From Bacteroidota bacterium (lineage in GTDB: Bacteria; Bacteroidota; Bacteroidia; CAILMK01): 48,782 bases of DNA. A program made the translations under genes and the position numbers. Location of the stretch: contig DAIUCM010000005.1 in NCBI GenBank assembly GCA_036846145.1, positions 11,032 to 59,813 on the forward strand. The letters are read 5' to 3'. Each line of letters opens with the position of its first letter. Within the stretch, counting starts at the first letter, position 1. The notes under the pieces are model-generated. The model was not told the origin of the DNA. It did not search any database and saw only the letters and a list, made by a program, of their open reading frames with translations. Positions 1 to 41,600 of the stretch are shown here, piece by piece.

Positions 1-1057
1 CGCCGCCGTAGCCGCCTTGTGAACCTTGTCCGCCAGACTGGCCGTAAGAAGAACCGCCATAGTTGCCTTGTGAGCCATAAGAAGAGCCACCCTGGTTACC
101 GCCCATAGAGCCTGAACCGTAGTTACCGCCCTGAGAACCGTAAGAAGAGCCACCCTGCGAACCGTAAGAACCCTGGTTTCCGCCGCCCCAGTTCTGAGAA
201 CCTGAGTTGCCGCCGTAATTGCCTTGCGATCCGTAAGAAGAACCACCGCCATAGTTTCCTTGTGAGCCTGAACCATAAGATGAACCCTGGTTGCCGCCTT
301 GTGAGCCGTAGCTTCCTTGTGAATTATAGGAAGAACCTCCTTGTGAGCCGCCCCATCCCTGGTTGCCTTGTCCGCTCATGCCTGAACCGTAGCTTCCGCC
401 GCCGTAGCCGCCTTGTGAACCTTGTCCGCCAGACTGGCCGTAAGAAGAACCACTTTGTGATCCGCCCCAGTTTCCTTGTCCGCTATCACCCATTCCTAAA
501 GATGATGAGCCGTATGAGCCCTGGTTAAAGCCGCTGTTTCCGCTGCCCTGGTTATAACCGCTGTTCTGGCTTCCTTGTCCGTAGCTACCGCCACTCATGC
601 CTGAGCCCTGGCTGCCGGACTGGCCATAAGAACTACCTTGAGATCCTGAGCCATAATTTCCGCCTCCTTGACCGCCAGACTGGTCATAGGAACTGCCTTG
701 TGATGATGAACCATAGCTGCTTTGGCTTCCGCTTTGCGAACCTGAGCCAGTTGAGCCGCTGCCAGATGATGAACCTGTGCTGCCGCTGCGTGAAGAAGTA
801 CTGCCAGACTTGCTGCCGGTTGCTGTGCTTCTTGTTGATTTTGCTGTTGTTCCTGTAGATTTTCCTTTTGATGAGGAAGATGAACCTGTAGAACCGCTTT
901 TCGCAGAACCAGATGAACTTCCGGAAGAGCCTGAACCCTGTGAAGTTGTTGTGTTGCCTGAGTTGGTAGAGCCGCTCATACCTGATGATGAGGATGAAGA
1001 GCCGCTGTTTTGGGATTGACTGGATTGTGAAGATGAGTTTTTGTTGTCTGTGGCCAT
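1..1057 (-). CDS. Low-complexity G/S/Y/Q/N-rich repeat protein (FUS-like SYGQ/GG repeats), 3' partial because the gene runs off the window start
   Basis: Minus-strand ATG at 1057..1055 opens an uninterrupted frame to position 1 (MATDNKNSSSQSSQSQNSGSSSSSSGMSG...). It then becomes degenerate repeats such as SSYGQSGGQGSQGGYGG and NYGGSS. The DNA carries a roughly 55-bp exact direct repeat at 1-56 and 397-452. The plus-strand ORFs 262..528 and 777..1019 are antisense artefacts of this repeat. Confidence 0.55.
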   Translation of the reverse strand, partial: MATDNKNSSSQSSQSQNSGSSSSSSGMSGSTNSGNTTTSQGSGSSGSSSGSAKSGSTGSSSSSKGKSTGTTAKSTRSTATGSKSGSTSSRSGSTGSSSGSGSTGSGSQSGSQSSYGSSSQGSSYDQSGGQGGGNYGSGSQGSSYGQSGSQGSGMSGGSYGQGSQNSGYNQGSGNSGFNQGSYGSSSLGMGDSGQGNWGGSQSGSSYGQSGGQGSQGGYGGGSYGSGMSGQGNQGWGGSQGGSSYNSQGSYGSQGGNQGSSYGSGSQGNYGGGSSYGSQGNYGGNSGSQNWGGGNQGSYGSQGGSSYGSQGGNYGSGSMGGNQGGSSYGSQGNYGGSSYGQSGGQGSQGGYGG

Positions 1058-1575
1058 AATAGATTAATTTATTTGGTTCGGTTTAGACAACATGAAAACT
1101 AAAAAAGTGTTTAACACCGCTTTTTTATGTTGTTTAATACAAATGCTTTATCATTTTTTAGAAACCTTAGTTTAAGTTTTATACTGCCGCAATTTTCGCA
1201 TGCATATCAGTTAACAAAACACTTTGCACATATATACCAGGCGCTAAAAATGCTTCGGGCTTATTACATGGTGGCAGTATGGTCATCTGAAATATGACCG
1301 TAAAACCGGCTGTTAAATTACGAAAATTCGGAGCTTGAAAATCAAGGCTTTACCAAATTCTTCTAAACACTATATACATTTCTGCTTTTATATAGTAAAG
1401 GATTAAGGAACATTTTTACGAATAAGTATTAATGGGAATTTAGTTTACATTAAAGTACACTGCTGAAAATAATAAATGGCGTTTTTACAGCACTTTGCTC
1501 CTGTATTTTTTCTGTATGCATTACGCAATGCTTTTGTCCTGATACTTAGAATTAAATTGTTTTTAAAATATAAAT

Positions 1576-2196
1576 ATGCCGGTTTCAAATATTGTAAAAA
1601 ACATAAAGCACGAAATTAACGCGCTCGCAGGCAAGGAAGCGAAAGACAAACAATTTTGCGCTGAACATATATATGAGCGTGAGGATGATGCTATAACAGC
1701 TTTCATTTTGTCGAAGGAAAAGCTCTTCGATGTAAATGCCTGGAGCGAAATTCCGGGTATAAATTCTACTTTTATTCTGTATGATGATAACGGAAAAAAA
1801 GCCGAAGGCAAAGTACTTGAAGGATATTTTATAAAGATATTGCTGCCAGGCGCAAAAATAAAGAATTGGGTACACATAAAATCAGTAACCAATGAGGCCG
1901 ATTTCGCGCAGTTTATAGTTCATCCGAGTGAAAAACCAGCCGACCGTAATAAACCGGATGCGGAAGTGAAACATTTTTTTGCGGAAGAAGCCAGCAGTAC
2001 TTTCAGGGTAATGAGAGAAGGCAATAAAATTACAGCATTTGAGATTGGCCGAAATGAAGTAATTAACAACAACGGCCATGAAGCCGGCAGCAGAGCCCTG
2101 TTAAATACACTGATAGCGGAAGGTGGCTGGGCCGGTTTCCAGAAAATACAATGGGAAAAGCTTACCCGCTATCTTGTGCATCTGGAGGAAGACTGA
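1576..2196 (+). CDS. Hypothetical protein, 206 aa, with no motif I recognise
   Basis: Clean ORF with ATG start and protein-like composition, in a clean gap between neighbouring genes. Confidence 0.5.
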   Translation: MPVSNIVKNIKHEINALAGKEAKDKQFCAEHIYEREDDAITAFILSKEKLFDVNAWSEIPGINSTFILYDDNGKKAEGKVLEGYFIKILLPGAKIKNWVHIKSVTNEADFAQFIVHPSEKPADRNKPDAEVKHFFAEEASSTFRVMREGNKITAFEIGRNEVINNNGHEAGSRALLNTLIAEGGWAGFQKIQWEKLTRYLVHLEED

Positions 2197-2426
2197 GTTT
2201 TTAAATTAAAAATTAAAAATTAAAAATGCTTCTGAGTTCGGTACCTTCTTGCTGTTTAGTATAGTTGAAACCCATATATGTTTATGATGCGGACTTGGGG
2301 CGTTGCCCCAAGCTGTGTTCTCTCACCCTTTTAGGGTGTTAATAAAGTATTTTTAGCATCAGTGATATATGAAATGCAGTTTGCAAAATGCATCACGCTT
2401 AACGCATCTCGCCCAGCGCATAACCA

Positions 2427-3398
2427 TTAAGTACTTAAAATACTTGCCAGCTCCATTAGCTCGTCCGCTACAGGTTTCTTTTTTTCTACTGCTTCGCGAA
2501 GGGAAACAAAATGCAGCTTTTCATTGCATAAGCCTAGCGCTACATTTTTTTTGCCATCCAGTAAAGCTTGTACGGCGCCAGCGCCCAGGCGCGATGCTAA
2601 AACACGGTCGCGCGCAGTTGGTGAGCCGCCTCGTTGAATATGGCCGAGCACAACAATACGGTATTCAATGCCATCAACCTGAGCTTTTATTTTCTCGACT
2701 ACTTCAAAAACACCACCCGCATCATCGCCTTCGGAAACCACTATCAGCTGCGAGCCTTTCTTTCTGCCCCAGCCATTGCGTATGGTTTCTACCAGGTCCT
2801 GCAGATTGGTTTTAAATTCAGGAACAAGAATGGCTTCCGCACCGCCGCTAATGCCAACATCCATGGCAATAAAACCTGCATCGCGGCCCATTACTTCCAC
2901 AAAAAACATACGGTCGTTACTATCTGCCGTATCCCGGATTTTATCTATAGCTTCCAGCGCTGTGTTAATTGCCGTGTCATAGCCGATAGTGTAATCTGTA
3001 CCGTAAAGATCGTTATCTATGGTTCCGGGTACGCCAATAATAGGTATGCCATGCTCTTCGAATAATTTGTAAGCGCCTGTGTATGTCCCATTTCCGCCAA
3101 TGGCAACAATTCCATCAATACATTTATCTCTTAACTGATCTGCAGCTATTTGCCGGCCTTCAGGCGTTAAGAAGCTTTTGCTGCGAGCCGTTTTTAAGAT
3201 TGTGCCTCCGCGTTGTATAATATTTGAAACAGAAACAGAGGTCATTTCTTCAATTCTGCCTTCAATCATGCCCTGGTAACCACGCTTGATGCCGTAAACC
3301 TGCAAACCATGGTATAAACCTGCGCGCACCACAGCACGTATACAGGCATTCATACCGGGTGCATCACCGCCGGAACAGAAAACAGCTATTTTTTTCAT
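2427..3398 (-). CDS. pfkA: ATP-dependent 6-phosphofructokinase
   Basis: MKKIAVFCSGGDAPGMNACIRAVV...GIVAIGGNGTYTGA...GTIDNDLYGTDYTIGYDTA...MGRDAGFIA are canonical PfkA motifs. The start is trimmed to the internal Met at 3398; the upstream 157 codons of the ORF track (to 3869) are non-protein-like and overlap the GH3 gene. Confidence 0.9.
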   Translation of the reverse strand: MKKIAVFCSGGDAPGMNACIRAVVRAGLYHGLQVYGIKRGYQGMIEGRIEEMTSVSVSNIIQRGGTILKTARSKSFLTPEGRQIAADQLRDKCIDGIVAIGGNGTYTGAYKLFEEHGIPIIGVPGTIDNDLYGTDYTIGYDTAINTALEAIDKIRDTADSNDRMFFVEVMGRDAGFIAMDVGISGGAEAILVPEFKTNLQDLVETIRNGWGRKKGSQLIVVSEGDDAGGVFEVVEKIKAQVDGIEYRIVVLGHIQRGGSPTARDRVLASRLGAGAVQALLDGKKNVALGLCNEKLHFVSLREAVEKKKPVADELMELASILST

Positions 3399-3512
3399 TT
3401 TGGCAAATCTTTCAACCGCAAAGAAAACTAAATTATTGCTACCTTTGGCTGAAATATTTTCCATTATAGTCATATAAATACAGGCCGGAAAATACTTAAG
3501 CCTTGTAAAAGC

Positions 3513-5033
3513 ATGGGAATAAAAGCTTTCGCTGCGAGAATTTTGGCTAAGCAGGTTCATAAAAGCACGCTCAACTGGAGCCGGAATCCTGCGCAGGTAC
3601 AAAAGAAAATACTTGAACAACTTGTGAAGGTTGGTAAGGAGACGCTTTTTGGTGATGACCACGATTTCAACTACATCAAAAATTATTCTGATTTTAAGGA
3701 AGTAGTTCCAATCCGTGATTATGAAGGTTTGCGCCCTTATGTAAAGAAAATACTGGAAGGCGAGGACGATGTCTTGTGGAAAGGCAAACCTTTGTATTTT
3801 GCTAAAACCAGCGGCACTACAAGCGGTGTAAAATATATTCCTATTTCCGATGAAAGCATGCCGTATCATATTAATGCGGCGCGAAATGCTTTGCTTGCAT
3901 ATATATATGAAACAGGAAATGCTTCATTTTTAGATGGTAAGCTTATTTTTTTAAGCGGCAGCCCGGTGCTTGAAGAAAAAAGCGGCATACAAACCGGCAG
4001 GTTATCAGGCATTGTAAATCATCATGTTCCATCTTATTTGCGTGGCGGCCAGCTGCCGAGCTATAAAACCAATTGTATTGAAGACTGGGAAACCAAAGTT
4101 GATAAAATTGTAGAGGAAACCATAAGCCAGGATATGCGCCTGATAAGCGGAATACCACCGTGGATGCAGATGTATTTCGATAAATTGCAGGAAAAGAGCG
4201 GCAAGAAAATAGGCGAGCTGTTCCCCAATTTTTCATTGATGGTGCAAGGTGGTGTAAACTTTGAGCCGTATAGAGAAAAACTTTTCCAAAGCATTGGCAG
4301 AAAGATAGATACGGTTGAGACTTTCCCTGCCAGCGAAGGCTTTATGGCTTACCAGAACAGCCAGAAAGAAGAAGGTTTGCTGCTATTGCTGAACCATGGA
4401 ATTTTTTACGAATTTATCCCGGCAAGCGAGGTTCATAACAATAATCCTACGCGCTTAAATATTTCTCAGGTGGAGCTTGGTGTAAATTACGCCATTATTC
4501 TAAATACAAATGCAGGTTTGTGGGGCTATAATATTGGCGATACAGTGAAATTTGTTTCTAAAGATCCGTACAAAATAATTGTAACCGGCCGTATAAAACA
4601 CTTCATTTCTGCTTTTGGCGAACACGTTATTGGCGAAGAGGTGGAAAGCAGTATTACAGAAGTTGCGCGCGAACAAGGTGTGAATATTATTGAATTTACG
4701 GTTGCGCCAAATATCAATCCGGCAGAGGGCGGCCTGCCTTACCACGAATGGTTTGTAGAGTTCGAGAATATTCCTGAAAACCTGGATAATTTCCGCATGA
4801 AAGTGGATGAAAGGCTGCAGCGCCGCAATATTTATTATAAAGATCTTATTGCCGGAAAAATCCTCCAGCCGTTGTGTATTCGCCCAATGCAGAAAGATAG
4901 TTTTATCAATTACATGAAATCTATAGGTAAGCTGGGCGGGCAAAATAAATTACCAAGATTAAGCAACGACAGGACAATTGCTGATAAGCTTGGAGATTAT
5001 GTTTTGCAAAGGCATAATTCAATTACGAATTAG
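3513..5033 (+). CDS. GH3 family protein (auxin-responsive GH3-like acyl-adenylate / acyl acid amido synthetase superfamily)
   Basis: 506 aa with a GH3-family-like N-terminal region (PLYFAKTSGTTSGVKYIPIS, KNYSDFKEVVPIRDYEGLRPY); full-length. Confidence 0.85.
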   Translation: MGIKAFAARILAKQVHKSTLNWSRNPAQVQKKILEQLVKVGKETLFGDDHDFNYIKNYSDFKEVVPIRDYEGLRPYVKKILEGEDDVLWKGKPLYFAKTSGTTSGVKYIPISDESMPYHINAARNALLAYIYETGNASFLDGKLIFLSGSPVLEEKSGIQTGRLSGIVNHHVPSYLRGGQLPSYKTNCIEDWETKVDKIVEETISQDMRLISGIPPWMQMYFDKLQEKSGKKIGELFPNFSLMVQGGVNFEPYREKLFQSIGRKIDTVETFPASEGFMAYQNSQKEEGLLLLLNHGIFYEFIPASEVHNNNPTRLNISQVELGVNYAIILNTNAGLWGYNIGDTVKFVSKDPYKIIVTGRIKHFISAFGEHVIGEEVESSITEVAREQGVNIIEFTVAPNINPAEGGLPYHEWFVEFENIPENLDNFRMKVDERLQRRNIYYKDLIAGKILQPLCIRPMQKDSFINYMKSIGKLGGQNKLPRLSNDRTIADKLGDYVLQRHNSITN

Positions 5034-21010: not shown

Positions 21011-21216
21011 ATATAAAATACTCAAAAATACTTCAAATTTGCGGAATGCGGGAGCGAAAAGCACCGAAACGGCAAACAACCTTTGGCTACCCGAAGCATT
21101 TTTGGCGCTATGCCTATATGGAAACCTATATTCATTAATTTATGTGGTGTTTTAATAGTCCACTTTATGATGAAAATTTAAATATTTATAGATGGCTTAA
21201 TTTGTACCTTTGTATT

Positions 21217-21624
21217 ATGGTTGATATTCATGATAAGGCGACGCGCAGCTATAATATGAGCCAAATCAAGGGGAAGAATACAAAACCGGAAATCAAAGTG
21301 AGAAAATTTCTTTTTTCACATGGTTTTAGATTCCGTATTCATGATAAAAAACTTCCCGGAAAACCAGATATTGTATTACCTAAGTATAGAACAATAATTT
21401 TTGTGCAAGGATGTTTTTGGCATGGACATGAGCATTGTAAATATTTTAAACTTCCATCTACAAGACATGAGTGGTGGAAGGCAAAAATCGAAAAAAACAT
21501 TTCAAATGATAAAAAGACTCAAGAAACTTTAAAACAGCTTGGATATAAGATAATTGTAGTTTGGGAGTGTCAAATTAAAAATGATAGTTTTAAAGAAAGT
21601 CTAATAGAAGATGTCAGAAAATAA
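21217..21624 (+). CDS. vsr: Very-short-patch repair endonuclease
   Basis: RSYNMSQIKGKNTKPEIKVRKFLF...IIFVQGCFWHGHEHC...WWKAKIEKN is the Vsr signature (FxDGCFWHGH-like). The start is chosen at MVDIHD; the stop overlaps the dcm start by 14 nt. Confidence 0.85.
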   Translation: MVDIHDKATRSYNMSQIKGKNTKPEIKVRKFLFSHGFRFRIHDKKLPGKPDIVLPKYRTIIFVQGCFWHGHEHCKYFKLPSTRHEWWKAKIEKNISNDKKTQETLKQLGYKIIVVWECQIKNDSFKESLIEDVRK

Positions 21625-22819
21625 ATCTAAATATAAAGTTAAGAATATAAGTGAGCAAGAAGACTGGAGAGACAAAGTGTTTTCTAATCCTGAAGCTGAA
21701 ATAAGAATAGGGACTTTATTTAGTGGGATTGGTGCCGTAGAGCATGCTTTAAATAGATTAAAGTTAAAACATTCTATAGTTTTTGCTAGTGATATAGATC
21801 GTTTTGTCAAAGAAAATTATTTTGCAAACTATAATATATCACCAATTGATTGGTATGATGATGTGACTAAATTTAATGCCAAAAAGTACGAAGGAAAAGT
21901 TGATATCATTGTTGGCGGTAGCCCTTGTCAGGCTTTTTCAATGGTTGGTAAAAGGTTAGGCCTAGAAGATATAAGAGGTACATTATTTTATGATTTTGCA
22001 CGAATTGTTTCAGAAACACAGCCCAAAGTATTTATTTTTGAGAATGTTAAAGGCTTAATGAATCATGACGGAGGTAAAACATGGCAGGTAGTTCAAGATG
22101 TATTTAATGAACTTAAATATAATATTTTCTCAGATATTTTAAACAGTAAAGATTATGGGATCCCTCAACATCGTGAAAGGGTTTTTGTAGTGGGCTTTAA
22201 AGATCCGAATATAAAATTTGAGTTTCCCAAAAAAATTCAACTAGAGTATTCTATGCAGGATTTTCTTGAAGATTTTATAGAATCTAAATATTATCTTAAA
22301 GAAAAAGGAGTGAAGTTTGTTACAAGTTCAAAAAATAAGCAAAAACGATATACGCAGATAAATGGTGAAGTAATGCTTTGCCAAAAAGCCAACCAGCAGT
22401 TTAACTGGCATGGTGATTTTATCTATGAAGATGCGGATGATAACGATTTTAACGAGTTTGTCTTTGATATTGGCACTGTTGAAGAGAAATATTATCTTTC
22501 TGAAAAGGTAAAAACCTATGTTCTAAAAAATGGTACGAAAAATTTTAAAACAAGTGTTAAAACAGATTTAGAAATTGCCAGGCCTCTTTTACAGACTATG
22601 CACAAAATGCATAGGGCTGGAGTTGATAATTATGTAACGCATAAAGGAAGAATCAGAAAATTAACTCCGCGCGAATGTCTAAGATTAATGGGTTTCAGAG
22701 ATGATTTTAAAATTGCTGTAAGCGATACACAAATGTATAGGCAAGCCGGTAATAGTATAGTTGTTGATGTTTTAATAGCTTTGTTAAAGCAAATGGACAT
22801 TACCCAATTTGGAAAATAA
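21611..22819 (+). CDS. dcm: DNA (cytosine-5)-methyltransferase
   Basis: C5-MTase motifs in canonical order: I LFSGIGAVE, IV GGSPCQAFS, VI FIFENVKGL, VIII QHRERVFVVG, X AGNSIVVDV. The stop TAA overlaps the next ATG (TAATG). Confidence 0.9.
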   Translation: MSENKSKYKVKNISEQEDWRDKVFSNPEAEIRIGTLFSGIGAVEHALNRLKLKHSIVFASDIDRFVKENYFANYNISPIDWYDDVTKFNAKKYEGKVDIIVGGSPCQAFSMVGKRLGLEDIRGTLFYDFARIVSETQPKVFIFENVKGLMNHDGGKTWQVVQDVFNELKYNIFSDILNSKDYGIPQHRERVFVVGFKDPNIKFEFPKKIQLEYSMQDFLEDFIESKYYLKEKGVKFVTSSKNKQKRYTQINGEVMLCQKANQQFNWHGDFIYEDADDNDFNEFVFDIGTVEEKYYLSEKVKTYVLKNGTKNFKTSVKTDLEIARPLLQTMHKMHRAGVDNYVTHKGRIRKLTPRECLRLMGFRDDFKIAVSDTQMYRQAGNSIVVDVLIALLKQMDITQFGK

Positions 22820-24495
22820 TGCAAGAAATAAATATTCAGGGTATTCAATATAGTATTGTTGATAAGAAAGAAAGAATTACAATTGCCGATTCTTTTGTCT
22901 TACCATCAAATAAAATGGGTGGAGGTAACGGAGAGGCAAAGTTATACGTAGGGCAGAATGACTCAACATTAAGATCTTTTTTCGGCGAAAGAGGTTTCAA
23001 AGTTGATTGTTTTCTTTTGAAAGAAGATCTTCTTAGATTTATGAGTGAGATCAGGACAGAATATTTTGAACCATTTCAAAACTATAGAGAAAAAGAGAGT
23101 TTGCCAAAACTTTGGTTACAACGTTTAAATAAAGTAAAAGAATTACCAGAAAGGATTGATTTTAAATTTATTGACCAAGATCAAATTGCTGGCCCAAGGG
23201 TATATGTAAATTCAGATGGTGCAGGGTATAAATTAATTCGTGAACTGGCACTACCAGTTGTTTCATATTTAGATATTCTAAAGCTTCAAAATAATTCTAC
23301 ATTTAAGTATTATCTGAAATTAAATGTAGTTGACTCTGATATTACAATTGAGAAAGAAGTCGAAAATGAAGTGGAGTTTAAAATGCCCTTTGATCCAAAC
23401 AAAATAAAGGTTCGAACTATACCGTCAACAATTGGACAGATTATTCAAGACTTAGAAGATAAAATAATAAATTTAGACACAGAATTTCAAAGACATCCAA
23501 ACCTTTGGGATGAAAAAAAACAAAGTCGGTTTATTGAGTCTTTATTACTCAGATTGCCTATTCCTGCATTTTATTTTAACGAACGTGAAGAGAATTCGCT
23601 TGAAGTTATTGATGGTTTACAAAGAATAAGTACAATAAAAAATTTTGCGATTGATAAATCGCTTATTTTAAGAGATTTGGAATACCTGAAAGAATATAAT
23701 AATTTTTCTTTTGATCAATTGCCAAACTTATATAGTCGAAGAATTAAAACGTTCCCTATTATAACGTATGTAATTGAAAAGGATACTCCAGATGAGGTTA
23801 AATTTAATATTTTTAAAAGGGTAAATACTGGAGGTTTAGTTTTAACCCAGCAAGAAATCAGGCATGCAATAAATCAAGGGACACCATCCGAACTGGTTGC
23901 CGAGTTAGTACGTAGTAAAAGTGAAGAAATTGATGATAATGAAACTGTTATAGAATTAAAAGCGACACCTGAAGGTATTGCTTTTAAAGAAGCAACTGGC
24001 GATAAAATAGGGTCCTTTAGAATGGAGGATAGAGATTTTGCAACTCGTTTTGTTTCTTTTTATCTGATTCCATATACAGAATATGAACCTGATTTAGATA
24101 CTTTTTTAAATAGGGGAATGAGCAAAATTAGAGATTTATCTAAATACGAAATTGATGAACTAAAAAATAACTTTCGTGAAGCAATGAATTTAGCAAAGGA
24201 TATTTTTGGAGATGATGCTTTTAGAAAAAGATTTAATTTATCAGATAGCAGAAAACCAATAAATAAGGCCCTTTTTGAAGTATTAAGCGTGAATTTCGCC
24301 AAATTGTCTCAAAATGAAAGAAATATTTTACGCCTGAGAAAAGATATTTTTAAGAAATATTTGATGGAGTTACATAACAGACAAGATGGTAAGTTTTTAA
24401 GATCAATAACTCAAGGTACAGCTCAGAAAGAATCCGTTGATCAAAGATTCAGAGATATTGAGAAAATTATAAAGCAAACTTTAGAAAATGATTAA
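22819..24495 (+). CDS. DUF262 (ParB/Srx-like nuclease/NTPase domain) protein with about 190 aa of unknown N-terminal domain
   Basis: The central segment IIQDLEDKIINLDTEFQRHPNLWDEKKQSRFIESLLLRLPIPAFYFNE...LEVIDGLQRISTI matches the DUF262 DGQQR-type motif region seen in GmrSD/DndB/SspE families. No DUF1524/HNH C-terminus is visible. The stop overlaps the next start by 8 nt (ATGATTAA). Confidence 0.8.
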   Translation: MQEINIQGIQYSIVDKKERITIADSFVLPSNKMGGGNGEAKLYVGQNDSTLRSFFGERGFKVDCFLLKEDLLRFMSEIRTEYFEPFQNYREKESLPKLWLQRLNKVKELPERIDFKFIDQDQIAGPRVYVNSDGAGYKLIRELALPVVSYLDILKLQNNSTFKYYLKLNVVDSDITIEKEVENEVEFKMPFDPNKIKVRTIPSTIGQIIQDLEDKIINLDTEFQRHPNLWDEKKQSRFIESLLLRLPIPAFYFNEREENSLEVIDGLQRISTIKNFAIDKSLILRDLEYLKEYNNFSFDQLPNLYSRRIKTFPIITYVIEKDTPDEVKFNIFKRVNTGGLVLTQQEIRHAINQGTPSELVAELVRSKSEEIDDNETVIELKATPEGIAFKEATGDKIGSFRMEDRDFATRFVSFYLIPYTEYEPDLDTFLNRGMSKIRDLSKYEIDELKNNFREAMNLAKDIFGDDAFRKRFNLSDSRKPINKALFEVLSVNFAKLSQNERNILRLRKDIFKKYLMELHNRQDGKFLRSITQGTAQKESVDQRFRDIEKIIKQTLEND

Positions 24496-25606
24496 TAGAC
24501 TCAGAGTAAAGAATTTCAAATCTCATAAGAATACAGAATTAACATTAGGAAATCTTACTGTTCTAAGTGGACAAAACGGGGCCGGAAAATCTTCACTTAT
24601 CCAAGCATTACTTCTTCTGCGGCAAACGGATTTGAAGAAAAGATTAAATGAAATTTTGGATTTAAATGATCCACTATGCTATATTGGTAAAACAAAAGAT
24701 GCGCTATATCAGTACGCTGATAAAGATGAGGGTGATGAAATTGCTTTTGTTTTGTCAGGATCGCAAGGTGAACATTCTTGGATCTTCGAAACCTCTAGGG
24801 AGTCAACATATTTGCGGCGTGTTAATGATCTTATTGATAGTGAAGGTTATGAAGATCTGCCATTGTTTTCACCAAATTTTCAATACATAAGTGCAAGTAG
24901 AAATTCGGAGTATACCACAAATGATTATGAAGTAGAAGTTCTTAGGCAAATCTCGCTAAAAGAAGGTAAAGGTGAACTAGTAGCTCAGTATTTGGTGAAA
25001 TATGGAAAAAGCTTAAAAGTCATTGAGAGTTTAAGACATAATGATGAGCCCGATGAATTTTTATTAAGTCAAACTACTGCTTGGGAAAGAGAGATTAGCA
25101 AAGGAGTAAATGTAAATCCTAATACGGTAGGAGAAAACTATGAGATCAGATATTCATTTGATACAGAGAAATATGGAACTACAGATAAATTCTCGGCAAA
25201 AAATGTTGGATTTGGCCTTTCTTATTCTCTTCCAGTGATCGTTTCAGTTTTAGCTTCTAGCCCTGGTGCAATTTTATTTATTGAGAATCCTGAAGCACAT
25301 ATTCATCCTTATGGTCAAGCCAAATTAGCTGAATTATTATGTTTAGGTGCTCAAGCTGGTATTCAAATTATTGTTGAAACACATTCAGATCATATTATAA
25401 ATGGAATATTAGTTCAATGTAAAAAGTTTGAGAATAATGGTAAAGGAATTAACAGAAATAATGTAAAAATATATCATTTTGATAGGGAAGAACAGACACA
25501 TTCAACTGTATATACTGAAATAGAAATTAATGAGAGGATTAGGTTAAATAATAGACCTTTAGGCTTTTTTGATCAAATGAGCAAAGACTTAAGCTCTCTT
25601 ATTTAA
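24488..25606 (+). CDS. ABC-type AAA ATPase (AAA_21/DUF3696-like, OLD-family ATPase without a Toprim domain)
   Basis: Walker A LSGQNGAGKSSLIQAL; Walker B and D-loop region AILFIENPEAHIHPYGQ...IQIIVETHSDHII with the HIHP motif; 372 aa; stop TAA overlaps the next ATG. Confidence 0.8.
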   Translation: MINRLRVKNFKSHKNTELTLGNLTVLSGQNGAGKSSLIQALLLLRQTDLKKRLNEILDLNDPLCYIGKTKDALYQYADKDEGDEIAFVLSGSQGEHSWIFETSRESTYLRRVNDLIDSEGYEDLPLFSPNFQYISASRNSEYTTNDYEVEVLRQISLKEGKGELVAQYLVKYGKSLKVIESLRHNDEPDEFLLSQTTAWEREISKGVNVNPNTVGENYEIRYSFDTEKYGTTDKFSAKNVGFGLSYSLPVIVSVLASSPGAILFIENPEAHIHPYGQAKLAELLCLGAQAGIQIIVETHSDHIINGILVQCKKFENNGKGINRNNVKIYHFDREEQTHSTVYTEIEINERIRLNNRPLGFFDQMSKDLSSLI

Positions 25607-26532
25607 TGAATAAATTAATGAACACTTTTTATTTATATATAAAATTTCCAGATAATATTGAAGAATTAATAAATTCTGCAGATAAAAAAGATAATTTTAT
25701 TAAAGATGTTAAAATGCTCATTAATAGAGCAGATTGTGAGAGAGGAGCAATAGTTTATTATGATAATTTATCACTAGAAGTTTTTTTAGATGAATTAGAA
25801 GCCTATGAAGAGTTTTATGATACGTTGAGTTTAAAGGATATTATTCGTCTTCTTTTATTTAATAATGATGTACGCAACTGGAAAGATTACCAAAGACATG
25901 AATTAAATGAAGACATATTTTACTATAGAGAATGGGTTCCGGAAAATCGATGCTCAAATGATGATTTCCCTGCCATATTTAAAGAAGTCGCTGAATGTAC
26001 TTTTCAGATAGTAAATAAAGATCTTGAATTTTGTCTTCTAATATCCGTTGGACATAAACACACTAATAAATATATTTATATAATAAAAGATAATAGGTTT
26101 GGTGCGCCAATGTTAACTGCTTTTGAAGTAGTTAAAAACTTTAGTGATTTAGAAGAGTGGTTTAAGACCAAAAGATTAAAAAGAAACTATAATTTTGATG
26201 ATAATAGACATGTTGAAACTCATCCCGAATATAGAAATGGGAAATCACCTTTGATTAATGGACTTGCAGGTAAAAAAAATGCTGAAGAATTGTTGGTGGA
26301 TGCTGTTGGAGACCAAAAGGAATCAAAAGATCTAGTTAATTTTGATGGTTTACATAGCTGTTATATATGGTATGAATATGAAAATGCTAGTAATCAATAT
26401 CATGGTTATCATTTAGTAATAAATAATGGAACTAGGTATATTCGTGATGTTAAAGAGGAAGAAAAAATGATACCTGATCGAGCTAAGGAAATAATAGAAT
26501 ATAGAAAAAGTCTCACATCTATAACTGCGTGA
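25606..26532 (+). CDS. Hypothetical protein, 308 aa; last gene of the vsr-dcm-DUF262-ATPase operon with no recognisable motifs
   Basis: ATG overlaps the ATPase stop (TAATG); AT-rich; protein-like composition, including an acidic, aromatic-rich C-terminal half. Confidence 0.6.
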   Translation: MNKLMNTFYLYIKFPDNIEELINSADKKDNFIKDVKMLINRADCERGAIVYYDNLSLEVFLDELEAYEEFYDTLSLKDIIRLLLFNNDVRNWKDYQRHELNEDIFYYREWVPENRCSNDDFPAIFKEVAECTFQIVNKDLEFCLLISVGHKHTNKYIYIIKDNRFGAPMLTAFEVVKNFSDLEEWFKTKRLKRNYNFDDNRHVETHPEYRNGKSPLINGLAGKKNAEELLVDAVGDQKESKDLVNFDGLHSCYIWYEYENASNQYHGYHLVINNGTRYIRDVKEEEKMIPDRAKEIIEYRKSLTSITA

Positions 26533-38680: not shown

Positions 38681-41600
38681 ATGACCACAACACCGGAAAC
38701 AAAGCAACCAACAGACCAGCTCGAGAAAGGCACGTATGAAGTAATTCGCAACAGGCTACTGAACCAGGGCATCGATTTGCAACAGCGCATTGGCAAACTG
38801 AACGATGCGCGCAAAAGCATTTTTGGTACGCTGGAGAGTAAGCTGGTGGCCACAGAACGTATTACCACGGAGCACAATTGCATCCCGATGGACATGATTC
38901 CCGTGGGCGATTTTTTCCTGTTTGGTTACAATGTACGTTTCGGCCTTAAGACAGAGATTGCGCTGGAGGATGTTTTTTCCATATATAAGAAGTCCGAAAA
39001 ATATTTTCAGCATGTTGGGCTTGAGCTGATTTCCGATGCGCGTTTTGCCGAAGATTTCAGGAATTTATACAAGTATTTCCGCGAAACAAGGTTTATAAAG
39101 TTTGCGCAGATCGGGCCGCATTTGTTCATGGTTTTCCAGGTTGGCAAAACGGTGAACGATGTGAAAACTTTTAAATGGACGCTCTCGCCAAAAGGTGAAC
39201 TGGTTTACCTCGATAATCGCAGCGACCATGAATTTACTTATCCGCAACAATACGAATTCAGCTGGAAACGCACTACACGCGAGCAGCATCGCGAAGGTTT
39301 GCATCCGCATATTTCTATTGAAGACAAGGTTTTTGTAGAGACTATTGGCGGCGACTTAACCATAAAAATTGAAGATAATACGAGCACCGGCAAGGGAATT
39401 TACAGCGAGGAAGTTGAGCTGAAAGACCAGACTTTGGATGACGGTGAGATCTATTATTCCATATTGGGAAATATTATTCTGCTGAAAATTCGCCCGTACA
39501 AAGAGAACAAATACCGCTACCTGGTTTACAACCAGAAATTGCAACAGGCGCTGCGGATTAACGCGCTGGAAGACAGTTGTATTTTGCTTCCTGAAGGCCA
39601 AGGAATTATTTTCAGCAACGGCTTTTACCTGCAAACCGGCGAGCACAAATTATTCGAAGGCAAGCAGGAGAAAATGATCTTCGAAAAGCGAATTGCTTCA
39701 CCCAATGGCGAGGATTTCCTGTTCGTTTATTTTAAGCCGGAAGACACTTCTTACCTGCTGCTTTTTTATAACCTCATTGAGCAAAAAATTACCAATACCA
39801 TTTTTTGCCACGGTTACAGTTTGTTCGAAAATGGCGAGCTGAGTTTTTTCCGTGCCGATACCGAACCGCAGAAATTTCACACCATTTCTACCTGGCAAAC
39901 TGCTTTCACCGGCCCGAATTATGTTTGGGATACACAAAGCGATTCGTATTTGTATAAGGTTGGAAATAAGGAAATTGTGAAGGCAATGGCCGATTGCCGC
40001 GCGCTGCACACTTTGCTCAACAAGGAAGATTCTTACCTGAACCTATATATAGATCTTTCGAAAAAAGCTTCGGAAATTCTGGATGCGTATCATTGGCTCG
40101 ATAAACCCGATGCGTACGAGTTGATTCAGCCCTTGTCCACCATTCGCGAGGCAGCTTCTTCGGCCATTAATGAGTTCGAAAAAGTTAGCGCCATACGAAA
40201 AAACACTGCGCAGGAAGTTGAAAAAGTAACCGAAAAATTCAGTAAACTAAGTAAAATTGTAAAGCATGATGCAGACAATATTACAGAATTTGTTCAGCAT
40301 TTGTCTGATTTGCGTGTGTTACGTGGCGAGCTGATTTCAGCCAAAAAACTTCGCTATGCAGATGTAAAATCTTTGCATGATTTTGAAGTCCAAACTGAAG
40401 TTTTAAGTGATGATGTTTCACAAAGATGCGTTACTTTTTTACTCGGGGAAAAAGCGCTTTCGCCATACGAGGAACAGGTAAAAACGCTGAGCCAATCTAT
40501 TCCTGCGCTGACCAAAACTACCGATGCAGATGCGGTTGAAGAGCAGGCGAAAAAATTATCAGCCGAACTGGAAATGCTCATAGAAACGGTGAGCAACCTG
40601 AAGATAAAAGACCCGACAGAAACAACGCGGATTATTGATGCTATTTCCGCAATTTATTCCGGCTTTAACCAGATTCGCGCGGCACTAAAAAACAAGCGCC
40701 AAAACCTGGCAGGAGAGGAGGGAAAAGCTGAATTTAATGCGCAGTTAAAGCTTGTCGATCAGTCGGTTATAAACTTTCTGGATGTTTGTGATAAGCCCGA
40801 AAAATGCGATCAGTACCTGAATAAACTGATGGTGATGCTGGAAGAAATGGAAGGCAAATTTTCTGCTTTCGATGAATTCGTATCACTTATCACTGAAAAG
40901 CGCGAAGAGGTTTATTCCGCTTTTGATGCACGAAAAATTCAGCTTACCGAAGCGCAGCAAAAACGCGCTGCGAGTTTAATGGCTTCTGCAGAACGGATTC
41001 TGAATGGCGTGAAAAACCGTTCCCTGAGTTTCAGTGAAGCGGCAGATGTAAACGGTTATTTCGCTGCGGATGCGATGGTTTCGAAGGTTCGCGATATTGC
41101 AAGTCAGCTGAAAGAAATTGGTGAAAACCTGAAAGCTGATGAGCTGGAAGGCAAACTGAAAACGCTGAATGAAGATGCGCTGCGCCAGTTGAAAGACAAG
41201 AAGGAAATGTACCTTTCCGGCGGGAATGTCATCAAGATCGGCAAGCACCAGTTCTCTGTAAACACGCAGCCGATCGATCTTTCCATCATCGCCAAAGAAG
41301 ACAAACTTTTCTTCCATTTAAGCGGCACAAAATTCTACGAAGAAATTAAGGATGAATCGCTTCAAAGCGCTAAAAATCTTTGGGAGCAACATCTTGTTTC
41401 TGAAAATAATGATGTTTATCGGTCTGAATATTTAGCATGGAAAATCTTCGCGGCAACCAAAGGAAACCGCATACTTTCAATAGCAGAAAATGAAAAAGTC
41501 AATATAAGCGAACTGCAAAAAATGCTTTCGGCAGATTTACTATTGTACGTGCAGAAATGCATGGCGCCGCTGTACAATGAAGGTTATATTAAAGGTGTTC

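What the first reader, a model, noticed from the sequence alone, without database searches (positions are those of the whole stretch)
1..1057. FUS-like SYGQ/GG low-complexity domain protein encoded by internally repetitive DNA
The minus-strand gene encodes a protein composed almost entirely of G, S, Y, Q and N, with degenerate [S/G]Y[G/S]Q, NYGG and QGG repeats after a Ser/Thr-rich N-terminus. The composition strongly resembles eukaryotic prion-like and FUS low-complexity domains that phase-separate. Bacterial counterparts include hydrophilin, desiccation and KGG-type stress proteins. The DNA carries a 55-bp exact direct repeat (1-56 and 397-452), implying recent repeat expansion or contraction and possible length polymorphism between strains.
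Basis: seen in the sequence. Interest (0 to 1): 0.55.

Follow-up and report, generated by a model that had tools for sequence, protein, structure and literature searches.

The report
Bacterial FUS-like disordered protein gene
The window starts inside a real, conserved gene of an uncultured Sphingobacteriales bacterium that encodes a fully disordered glycine/serine/glutamine/tyrosine protein resembling the FUS low-complexity domain in composition only; its function is untested, and the "55-bp repeat" is where short-read assemblies break.

Summary
The minus-strand ORF 1057..2 is the only stop-free frame and runs off the window. It encodes 352+ residues that are 88% G/S/Q/N/Y, with a Ser/Thr-rich basic head.

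It is a real gene. Two related uncultured Sphingobacteriales lineages carry orthologues upstream of the same pfk gene. One is complete at 605 aa and ends in an acidic Trp/Tyr tail and a terminator hairpin. dN/dS is about 0.25.

Aromatic residues are spaced far more evenly than chance, and AlphaFold predicts no structure.

It meets the compositional definition of a hydrophilin. It is not a KGG, LEA or FET family member. Default BLAST and HMMER are blind to it, so the "no homologues" results mean nothing.

The 55-nt exact repeat is real, but its length is set by the assembler. Two other assemblies break at the same repeat, and 55 equals the default largest SPAdes k. The true extent and copy number are unknown.

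Length differs between lineages, not demonstrably between strains.

Best guess, unproven: a cytoplasmic self-associating stress-protectant or condensate scaffold. A conserved AAC-N16-TGT two-box upstream element may be an alternative-sigma promoter.

Interest is moderate.

The parts
2..1057 (-). LC1 coding sequence, 5' part. It covers 352 codons from ATG 1057-1055. The C-terminus lies beyond the window/contig end.
   Evidence: It is the only stop-free frame of six; translation. Orthologues in L009 (605 aa, complete) and L022 (>=377 aa) share the same start MATDNKN. dN/dS is 0.25-0.26, and third-position mismatch is 0.47-0.51 against 0.21-0.31 at positions 1 and 2.
719..1057 (-). Basic Ser/Thr/Gly-rich head, aa 1-113.
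   Evidence: It has 8 K/R against 1 D/E and pI 11.3. Residues 1-115 are S 45% and T 13%. It is the best-conserved part between lineages.
2..718 (-). Uncharged G/S/Q/N core studded with Tyr/Trp/Phe, aa 114-352.
   Evidence: Residues 116-352 are G 39%, S 26%, Q 13.5%, Y 9.3% and N 7.2%. The core (114-352) has 0 K/R and 2 D/E. Its 27 aromatic residues are spaced 5-15 residues apart, CV 0.32 against 0.89+-0.16 in shuffles, 0 of 5000 shuffles as even. AlphaFold pLDDT is 34.6 with no secondary structure.
1..55 (.). Terminal copy of the exact 55-nt repeat. It encodes GSSYGQSGGQGSQGGYGG, and the contig ends in it.
   Evidence: It is identical to 397-451. It is the only repeated peptide of 6 aa or more whose copies use identical codons, 0 of 18 different.
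397..451 (.). Internal copy of the 55-nt repeat. This is the break point of two other assemblies.
   Evidence: ENA ERZ1669374 NODE_216 (48386 nt, which is the window minus 396) equals the window from 397 with 0 mismatches. The Logan SRR3961739 contig equals the window from 422, that is 30 nt before the repeat's 3' boundary.
56..396 (-). 341-nt unique segment between the two repeat copies. It acts as a 396-nt 'loop' in a k=55 assembly graph, and its copy number is unresolved.
   Evidence: It is present in the window but absent from the otherwise identical ENA contig. This graph interpretation is my inference.
1073..1114 (-). Conserved two-box upstream element: TTAAACA (1114-1108), a 15-nt variable spacer, then TGTTGTCTAAACCGAACCAA (1092-1073). 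It ends 16 nt before the ATG and is a candidate promoter / 5' leader.
   Evidence: It is invariant in three lineages whose remaining intergenic DNA is unalignable. The 20-mer is unique in the window at up to 3 mismatches. AAC-N17-GTT lies at -54/-55 in all three lineages. A similar GAACA-N15-TGTC lies upstream of the paralogue LC2 in L009.
1058..1575 (.). 518-nt AT-rich (GC 0.30) divergent intergenic region between LC1 and the 206-aa gene.
   Evidence: There is no Rfam family at gathering threshold and only one chance-level hit at E 0.32, which lies inside the CDS.

Best explanation
Window 1057..2 is the 5' two-thirds or less of a real, monocistronic chromosomal gene, here called LC1, of an uncultured Sphingobacteriales bacterium.

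Shown:
- The protein has no foldable domain and no hydrophobic segment.
- Judged from the complete orthologue, it is tripartite. A basic Ser/Thr-rich head of about 115-125 aa (pI ~11) is followed by a long, practically uncharged Gly/Ser/Gln/Asn core. In that core a Tyr/Trp/Phe residue recurs every 5-15 residues, mostly as [S/N/G]-aromatic-G. A short acidic Trp/Tyr-containing tail (pI ~4) ends the protein.

Inferred mechanism:
- The protein stays in the cytoplasm as a disordered chain.
- The evenly spaced aromatic 'stickers' in a polar Gly/Ser 'spacer' matrix give multivalent weak self-association, as in the FUS low-complexity domain.
- The oppositely charged head and tail add head-to-tail attraction.
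- At high concentration, or on water loss, heat or osmotic stress, it would therefore condense into a liquid, gel or glass-like phase that protects or organises cytoplasmic components. That would make it a hydrophilin-type stress protectant.
- Transcription is probably driven by the conserved AAC-N16-TGT(T/C) two-box element, which looks more like an alternative (ECF-type) sigma promoter than the Bacteroidota housekeeping TAnnTTTG type.

The 55-nt exact repeat is a real internal repeat of at least 55 nt that short-read assemblers cannot cross. Its apparent length equals the assembler's k-mer, and the number of 396-nt units in the true gene is unknown.

My confidence that this is a real gene for a disordered protein is about 0.95. 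My confidence in the assembly interpretation of the repeat is about 0.85. My confidence in the condensate/stress-protectant mechanism is about 0.35. The overall figure given for this explanation (0.4) is weighted towards the mechanism.
For: Gene reality:
- It is the single open frame.
- Orthologues lie in L009 and L022, upstream of the same pfk-GH3 gene pair.
- dN/dS is 0.25-0.26 at saturated dS, with a third-position excess of mismatches.
- Identical repeated peptides use different codons at 54% of codons, so selection acts on the protein rather than on the DNA repeat.
- Gly codon usage equals the window background.
- In L009 the orthologue has a stop followed by a hairpin terminator, and the downstream paralogue LC2 has its own upstream boxes and terminator.

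Disorder and sticker-spacer pattern:
- pLDDT is 34.6 with no secondary structure.
- Aromatic spacing CV is 0.32 against 0.89 in shuffles, 0 of 5000 as even. The same holds in both orthologues.
- The core has 0 K/R.

Hydrophilin criteria: Gly 32% and GRAVY -1.16.

Cytoplasmic location: there is no I, V, C or P, only one L and one F, and no Por_Secre_tail or other domain in the complete orthologue.

Promoter: the two boxes are invariant in three lineages with a variable spacer.

Habitat: an identical contig occurs in SRR3961739, a run deposited with a study of central-Indian hot springs (PMC5214690).

Assembly.
Against: - There is no expression, localisation or biochemical data of any kind. The function rests on composition and architecture alone.
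- Even aromatic spacing follows automatically from a repeat-derived sequence, so it is not independent proof of selection for patterning.
- The AlphaFold run used a single sequence, which often gives low confidence.
- The family was found in only three close lineages. It was absent from the same locus in relatives with 70-74% GH3 identity and in a MAG in the same 90%-identity GH3 cluster as the window. A general stress role would not obviously predict this. Other genomic locations could not be searched.
- Known bacterial hydrophilins are charged and much smaller.
- The promoter assignment comes from resemblance to consensus sequences recalled from memory. An exact TAnnTTTG is also missing from 18 of 23 other upstream regions in the window, so its absence here says little.
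- The codon bias (AAC 86%, few G-ending codons) is only weak evidence for high expression.
Confidence: 0.4

Rival explanations
1. LC1 is a nucleic-acid-associated scaffold that organises RNA or the nucleoid, as a FUS-like RNP-granule or nucleoid condensate protein. The basic Ser/Thr/Lys/Arg head would bind RNA or DNA, and the Tyr-rich core would drive co-condensation.
For: The head is basic, pI 11.1-11.3. The composition is FUS-LC-like. Bacterial RNA and DNA chaperones are known to carry Gly/Gln/aromatic tails, namely the Acinetobacter Hfq C-terminus (cited in PMC13552118) and the SSB linker with its acidic tip (my own knowledge).
Against: The window protein has only 8 K/R in 352 aa, 0 RGG motifs, and no RRM, KH, OB or any other domain. 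Charge density is very low for a nucleic-acid binder. No RNA-metabolism genes are linked to it.
Confidence: 0.15
2. LC1 is an extracellular or surface structural or adhesive material, like the Gly/Ser/Tyr-rich resilin, silk or tick-cement proteins. It would be released by lysis or a non-classical route, and possibly cross-linked through tyrosines in a mat or biofilm matrix.
For: The G/S/Y-rich, evenly patterned composition resembles secreted elastomeric and adhesive proteins that phase-separate, for example the tick glycine-rich protein (PMC11794139, listed). An identical contig comes from a run deposited with a hot-spring metagenome study.
Against: There is no signal peptide or any hydrophobic stretch. 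The complete orthologue has no T9SS C-terminal sorting domain, whereas two neighbouring window proteins do have one and it is detectable. No Pro is present. No secretion or cross-linking genes are adjacent.
Confidence: 0.08
3. LC1 is a young, fast-evolving lineage-restricted orphan whose sequence is shaped mainly by repeat expansion and contraction. It would have little or no specific function, being tolerated 'filler' or at most an amino-acid/nitrogen reserve.
For: It was found in only three close lineages and is absent from the same locus in the next relatives. dN is about 5 times that of the neighbours. Large repeat-unit indels separate the orthologues. Higher-order 195- and 351-nt tandem units occur in L009.
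Against: dN/dS of 0.25 has been maintained over saturated synonymous divergence. The start, head, C-terminal tail type and upstream boxes are conserved. Repeated peptides are kept despite codon divergence. A second paralogue with the same core and tail type is retained.
Confidence: 0.2
4. The ORF is not a gene. It would be an antisense or chance open frame in repetitive DNA, or an assembly chimera.
For: No database hit appears in any HMMER or BLAST-default search. In L022 the gene caller called wrong-frame 101-aa ORFs instead. The contig ends inside the gene.
Against: The negative searches are uninformative. Default tblastn misses even the true orthologue, while E = 7e-126 is obtained with filters off. 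The frame is conserved in three lineages, with a synonymous excess and a proper stop and terminator. Three independent assemblies give identical sequence. The plus-strand ORFs are short and Cys/Leu/Arg-rich.
Confidence: 0.02

Closest known systems
FUS / FET-family low-complexity (SYGQ-rich, prion-like) domain of eukaryotes
   Same: Composition is similar: G 0.39, S 0.26, Q 0.135, Y 0.093 in LC1 residues 116-352, against G 0.25, S 0.24, Q 0.20, Y 0.126 in FUS 1-214. The core carries almost no charge. It has 27 aromatic residues, evenly spaced at a mean of 9 residues against 7.8 in FUS. It is predicted to be fully disordered.
   Different: There is no sequence homology and no RRM, zinc finger or RGG region (0 RGG motifs). 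It is a stand-alone bacterial protein. It has no Pro, less Gln and more Gly, uses Trp as well as Tyr, and adds a basic Ser/Thr head and an acidic tail. The resemblance is convergent and compositional.
Hydrophilins, defined by Gly >6% and hydrophilicity index >1 (Garay-Arroyo et al. 2000, cited in PMC7139818). Bacterial examples are E. coli YciG and B. subtilis GsiB (KGG repeat, PF10685) and A. baumannii DtpA/DtpB (Green et al. 2022, cited in PMC13552118).
   Same: It meets both compositional criteria (Gly 32%, GRAVY -1.16). It is disordered, cytoplasmic, repeat-built and monocistronic.
   Different: It has no KGG motif and no Pfam or NCBIfam hit. The core is uncharged and aromatic-rich instead of Lys/Glu/Asp-rich. 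It is several times larger. Induction by water deficit is untested.
Glycine/glutamine/aromatic-rich disordered tails of bacterial nucleic-acid chaperones: the Acinetobacter Hfq glycine-rich C-terminus (Sharma et al. 2018, cited in PMC13552118) and the SSB linker with its acidic tip (my own knowledge)
   Same: These are bacterial, Gly-rich repeats with interspersed aromatic residues. The acidic aromatic C-terminal tip of the LC1 orthologue (…DWMGSGWMDDDNDSRY) recalls the SSB tip.
   Different: Those are appendages of folded Sm or OB domains. LC1 has no folded domain at all.
Computationally predicted bacterial prion-like proteins (Harrison 2019, PMC6400439)
   Same: [quoted passage not shown] LC1 would plausibly be flagged by such composition scans.
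   Different: Those sets are Q/N-driven predictions, mostly domains within larger proteins. LC1 is G/S-dominated (Q+N 17%) and consists only of low-complexity sequence. PLAAC could not be run here.
Secreted Gly/Ser/Tyr-rich structural proteins that phase-separate, such as the tick cement glycine-rich protein (PMC11794139) and resilin or silk (my own knowledge)
   Same: They share G/S/Y-rich repetitive sequence with aromatic residues at regular intervals.
   Different: Those proteins are eukaryotic, secreted and often contain Pro. LC1 has no export signal.

Membership tests
Hydrophilin (compositional class) | Gly content >6% | tested here: met
   Gly is 32% in the window protein and 23-32% in the two orthologues and the paralogue LC2.
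Hydrophilin (compositional class) | Mean hydrophilicity index >1 (GRAVY < -1) | tested here: met
   GRAVY is -1.16 for the window protein, -1.34 for L009 LC1 and -1.41 for L022.
Hydrophilin (compositional class) | Accumulation under water deficit, or a protective activity | not testable with these tools
   No expression or biochemical data are available.
KGG-repeat stress proteins (Pfam PF10685; GsiB/YciG) | KGG-containing repeat detectable by the Pfam model | tested here: not met
   There are 0 KGG tripeptides and 0 Pfam or NCBIfam families. HMMER is weak on this composition, but the motif itself is absent.
FET family (FUS/EWS/TAF15) | SYGQ-rich low-complexity domain | tested here: inconclusive
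   The G/S/Q/Y composition and aromatic patterning are similar. Only 4 strict [SG]Y[GS]Q motifs occur, and no alignment-based homology could be tested.
FET family (FUS/EWS/TAF15) | RRM, RanBP2-type zinc finger and RGG regions | tested here: not met
   No Pfam domains were found in the window protein or the complete 605-aa orthologue, and there are 0 RGG motifs.
LEA / CsbD / YtxH and other named bacterial stress IDP families | Match to the family profile | tested here: not met
   No Pfam or NCBIfam hit appeared up to E = 1-10.
Prion-like domain (PLAAC-type) | Q/N-rich composition scoring above the PLAAC threshold over 60 residues or more | not testable with these tools
   PLAAC is not available. 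Q+N is 17% and the composition is G/S-dominated.
Secreted / T9SS cargo of Bacteroidota | N-terminal signal peptide and C-terminal Por_Secre_tail domain | tested here: not met
   There is no hydrophobic stretch: no I or V, and only 1 L and 1 F. The complete orthologue gives 0 Pfam families, and its 45-aa acidic tail is too short for that domain. The same model does detect two neighbouring window proteins.
Collagen-like / Gly-X-Y repeat proteins | Strict Gly every third residue | tested here: not met
   The sequence shows no G-X-Y periodicity. The Pfam Collagen model hit only the N-terminal fragment of paralogue LC2, at E 1.1 and 9.5 bits against a cut-off of 27.2.

The most novel reading that the evidence does not exclude
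LC1, together with its paralogue LC2, is a natural stand-alone prokaryotic counterpart of the FUS low-complexity domain. It would be an aromatic-sticker, polar-spacer scaffold that evolved convergently in a Sphingobacteriales lineage detected in a hot-spring metagenome. Under an alternative-sigma stress promoter it would form a reversible cytoplasmic condensate, gel or glass, tuned by a basic head and an acidic tail and by rapid changes in repeat number. Because SEG and composition filters hide such proteins from BLAST and HMMER, a whole class of them may be unrecognised in bacterial genomes.
Probability: 0.25. Interest if true: 0.7.

Novelty: new variant of a known kind. Interest (0 to 1): 0.4.

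Why it matters
If LC1 really self-associates through its evenly spaced Tyr/Trp residues, it would be a natural bacterial test case for the sticker-and-spacer rules worked out on eukaryotic FUS-type domains. It would also be a new compositional type of bacterial hydrophilin: uncharged and aromatic rather than charged. Either way it is a candidate stress protectant or a biomaterial-like sequence.

There are two practical lessons:
- Default homology searches, and at least one gene call, fail on such genes. Their apparent orphan status is therefore partly an artefact.
- Short-read assemblies end inside them, so repeats seen at contig ends reflect the assembler's k-mer rather than biology.

None of the functional claims has been tested.

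Tried and rejected
Searches that found nothing and are uninformative:
- The search for homologous proteins with LC1: 8000 word candidates, none scored.
- The exhaustive phmmer search against 1.84 billion representatives: 0 hits.
- phmmer against PDB sequences: 0 hits.
- Pfam, NCBIfam, PHROGs and PADLOC: 0 hits.
- The search for related loci on viral contigs: no confirmed hit.
- These negatives carry no weight. Default tblastn misses the true orthologue, whereas -seg no -comp_based_stats 0 gives E = 7e-126.
- A search with the less repetitive N-terminal 178 aa of paralogue LC2 also gave nothing.
- Exact look-up of the LC proteins found them absent from the clustered collection.

- The single genome-contig scan went on the neighbouring 206-aa gene. 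It found relatives at 46-52% identity, mostly in Cytophagales, with no LC gene nearby.
- The single metagenome scan used the conserved upstream 20-mer. It returned two chance hits inside unrelated genes.

Other negative results:
- blastn 'distant' against plasmids and phages gave no match.
- Rfam gave nothing in the region.
- The synteny walk through GH3 homologues at 70-74% identity found no LC gene beside pfk-GH3.
- The sigma-70 consensus scan was no better than shuffles.
- An exact Bacteroidota -7 motif TAnnTTTG is absent upstream of LC1. It is also absent from 18 of 23 other upstream regions, so this was dropped as evidence.
- Literature searches found no described bacterial stand-alone SYGQ/GYG-type protein, but the library is limited.

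Rejected readings: antisense or chance ORF, KGG family, T9SS cargo, collagen-like.
Full report
**1. What is in the sequence**

The window begins inside a minus-strand ORF. Its ATG is at 1057-1055, and the frame is open for 352 codons down to position 2. It is the only one of the six frames without stops; the others have 4 to 41.

The product is 32% Ser, 32% Gly, 11% Gln, 6.5% Tyr and 6% Asn. It contains no Cys, Glu, His, Ile, Pro or Val. No other ORF of the window exceeds 52% G/S/Y/Q/N in any 50-residue stretch.

Residues 1-115 are Ser/Thr-rich (45% and 13%). Residues 1-113 are basic, with 8 K/R against 1 D/E and pI 11.3. Residues 114-352 have no K/R at all, and residues 116-352 are 39% Gly, 26% Ser, 13.5% Gln, 9.3% Tyr and 7.2% Asn.

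- The exact repeat is 55 nt (1-55 = 397-451), not 56.
- The strict [S/G]Y[G/S]Q motif occurs only four times.
- The real unit is [S/N/G]-[Y/W/F]-Gly, at 23 of 27 aromatic residues.

**2. Is it a gene? Yes**

Standard searches gave nothing at all. I show that this is a blind spot of the methods. Default tblastn, with SEG masking and composition-based statistics, fails to find even the true orthologue. With both switched off the match has E = 7e-126.

The orthologues were reached through neighbouring genes instead. The window's GH3-family protein belongs to a 90% cluster whose members led to two loci:
- L009 (ENA ERZ25038114, a 224-kb contig) carries a complete 605-aa orthologue with the same start, MATDNKNSS….
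- L022 (ENA ERZ1761215) carries a third orthologue of at least 377 aa that again runs off its contig.

In both loci the gene sits immediately upstream of the same pfk-GH3 pair.

The three lineages are well separated. PFK is 90-92% identical between them and dS is about 1 or more. Even so, the alignable N-terminal 166-175 codons of LC1 give dN/dS of 0.25-0.26. Third-position mismatch is 0.47-0.51 against 0.21-0.31 at positions 1 and 2.

Within the window protein, peptides of 6 aa or more that occur twice are encoded by different codons at 54% of codons. All repeat spacings are multiples of three. Selection therefore acts on the protein.

In L009 the gene ends with a stop and a hairpin terminator. 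It is followed by a second, 464-aa paralogue, LC2. LC2 has its own upstream region and terminator, a charged Asp/Arg/Asn/Tyr-rich N-terminal part, and the same kind of Tyr-studded core and acidic tail.

The gene caller used for L022 called two wrong-frame 101-aa ORFs instead of the true frame.

**3. The 55-nt repeat**

The repeat is real in the assembly, but its length is not a biological measurement.

The ENA contig ERZ1669374 NODE_216 has SPAdes-style naming and is 48,386 nt long, which is the window minus 396. It is identical to the window from position 397 onwards, so it starts exactly at the internal copy of the repeat.

A Logan contig from SRR3961739 is identical from position 422. That is 30 nt before the point (451/452) where the two copies diverge. 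From my own knowledge, Logan uses k = 31, so 30 nt is k-1.

This is what de Bruijn assemblers produce when they enter a repeat from its unique side. The contig stops at the first shared k-mer (my inference). 55 is the largest default k of SPAdes for short reads (my own knowledge).

The window goes once round a 396-nt 'loop' (56-396 plus one copy of the 55-mer) and stops at the same 55-mer. The true repeat is therefore at least 55 nt. It may extend further to the left, and the number of 396-nt (132-aa) units is undetermined.

The 55-mer is the only repeated peptide whose two copies use identical codons, 0 of 18 different.

Between lineages the repeat region clearly changes by whole units. The lengths are 605 aa in L009, at least 377 in L022 and at least 352 here, with large in-frame gaps in the alignment. 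L009 shows 195-nt and 351-nt higher-order tandem units at 80-89% identity. Strain-level polymorphism was not seen, since the three assemblies of the window's lineage are identical where they overlap.

**4. Anatomy and likely mechanism**

The complete orthologue is tripartite:
- a basic Ser/Thr head, residues 1-125, pI 11.1;
- an uncharged core, residues 126-560, with 0 K/R and 2 D/E;
- an acidic aromatic tail, residues 561-605, pI 4.1, ending …DWMGSGWMDDDNDSRY.

Aromatic residues in the core are spaced 5-15 residues apart. The CV is 0.32, against 0.89 ± 0.16 for shuffled sequences, and none of 5000 shuffles was as even. The same holds in both orthologues. The caveat is that a repeat-derived sequence is regular by construction.

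AlphaFold, run on a single sequence, gives pLDDT 34.6 and no secondary structure. No hydrophobic segment, signal peptide or T9SS sorting domain is present.

Gly at 32% and GRAVY at -1.16 satisfy the compositional definition of hydrophilins. That definition is Gly >6% and hydrophilicity >1, from Garay-Arroyo et al. 2000 as I know it; the reference is listed in PMC7139818.

From this I infer, without direct evidence, a cytoplasmic disordered protein that self-associates in two ways. The first is many weak aromatic contacts in a polar Gly/Ser matrix. The second is head-to-tail electrostatics. Under crowding or water loss it would then form a condensate, gel or glass that protects or organises the cytoplasm.

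**5. Regulation**

The 518-nt intergenic region is unalignable between lineages except for one element just upstream of the ATG. That element is TTAAACA, then 15 variable nt, then TGTTGTCTAAACCG(A/T)ACCAA (window 1114-1073, minus strand). It is invariant in all three lineages.

LC2 in L009 has GAACA-N15-TGTC at a comparable place. The shared AAC-N16-TGT(T/C) pattern, two boxes with a free spacer, resembles ECF-type sigma promoters. Those have an 'AAC' -35 element and a 'GT(C/T)' -10 element about 16-17 nt apart, which I recall from memory and did not test.

The absence of an exact Bacteroidota TAnnTTTG motif is not informative, because 18 of 23 other upstream regions in the window lack it too. 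No Rfam family matches the region.

**6. Organism and distribution**

The window is ordinary Bacteroidota chromosome. It carries pfk, a GH3-family gene, the shikimate genes, cmk, a UvrD-family helicase and T9SS cargo proteins.

The closest named GH3 homologues are Pedobacter at about 67% identity. Near relatives are annotated as 'MAG: Sphingobacteriales bacterium'.

SRR3961739 is among the shotgun runs deposited with a study of hot springs in central India (PMC5214690).

LC genes were absent from the pfk-GH3 locus in relatives at 70-74% GH3 identity. They were also absent from a MAG in the same 90%-identity GH3 cluster as the window, which keeps the 206-aa gene.

**7. Comparison with known families and verdict**

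LC1 works, at most, like a FUS-type low-complexity domain or a hydrophilin.

It is not a member of these families:
- FET family: no RRM, zinc finger or RGG.
- KGG family: no KGG motif and no PF10685 hit.
- LEA or CsbD-type families.
- Secreted or T9SS proteins.

It does meet the purely compositional hydrophilin definition. However, it differs from described bacterial hydrophilins (DtpA/DtpB and the KGG proteins; PMC13552118) in being uncharged, aromatic-rich and large.

Surveys have already noted many predicted prion-like proteins in Bacteroidetes (PMC6400439). I found no described stand-alone bacterial protein of this type in the searchable literature, which is weak negative evidence.

I rate it a new variant of a known kind, namely bacterial disordered stress or low-complexity proteins. 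It is of moderate interest: the gene is real and conserved, the FUS-like grammar is striking, and the mechanism is wholly untested.

Noticed in passing
window 21142-26532 (+ strand): This is a low-GC island (0.29-0.32 against about 0.42 elsewhere, GC skew about +0.2). It holds five co-directional, overlapping or abutting genes. They are a Vsr mismatch endonuclease, a C5 cytosine DNA methylase, and three proteins matching the PADLOC models NsnA (E 5e-128), NsnB (E 1e-99) and NsnC (E 1e-36). It looks like a horizontally acquired methylase/Vsr plus Nsn defence cassette.
   Followed up: partly
L009 5004-6398 (- strand), directly downstream of the LC1 orthologue: This is a second low-complexity paralogue, LC2, of 464 aa. 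It has an unusual N-terminal part: Asp runs, Arg/Asn/Tyr-rich sequence and one non-repetitive motif, GNFFSRIGQGIRNTWNDIVGG. A Tyr-studded G/S/Q/N core follows, and the tail ends …SWRDNDYDM. It has its own AAC-N16-TGTC boxes and a strong terminator. Whether the window's organism has it is unknown, because it would lie beyond the contig end.
   Followed up: partly
L022 321-965, and the tool behaviour: The gene caller for ENA ERZ1761215 called two wrong-frame 101-aa ORFs (Ala/Val/Lys-rich) over the LC gene. SEG and composition filters in BLAST and HMMER remove even 100%-related matches. Proteins of this kind are therefore systematically mis-annotated and look like orphans.
   Followed up: yes
window 1576-2196 (+ strand): This 206-aa gene is divergent from LC1 and has no Pfam or NCBIfam family. 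Homologues at 46-52% identity occur, mostly in Cytophagales (Cyclobacterium, Pontibacter, Spirosoma, Aquiflexum). It is present in the related MAG GCA_004144165.1 but absent from the LC1 loci of L009 and L022, so it is not part of the LC1 unit.
   Followed up: partly
window 2427-3869 (- strand): The mechanical ORF for phosphofructokinase is 480 aa. The Pfam PFK domain starts at residue 160, and orthologues start at MKKIAVFC (323 aa, start at 3398). The long N-terminal extension is therefore almost certainly not translated.
   Followed up: yes
window 38681-43606 (+) and 45036-47723 (-): The first is a 1641-aa protein with DUF3686 ('ATPase involved in DNA repair'), DUF7902 and AAA domains. The second is an 895-aa cyanophycin-synthetase-like protein with Cyanophycin_syn, ATP-grasp and Mur ligase domains.
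   Followed up: no
window 2213-2312: A short 'aaattaaaaattaaaaattaaaaa' A/T repeat lies directly after the stop of the 206-aa gene. It is followed by a GC-rich hairpin, CTTGGGGCGTTGCCCCAAG (2294-2312), which is probably the terminator shared with or facing pfk.
   Followed up: no
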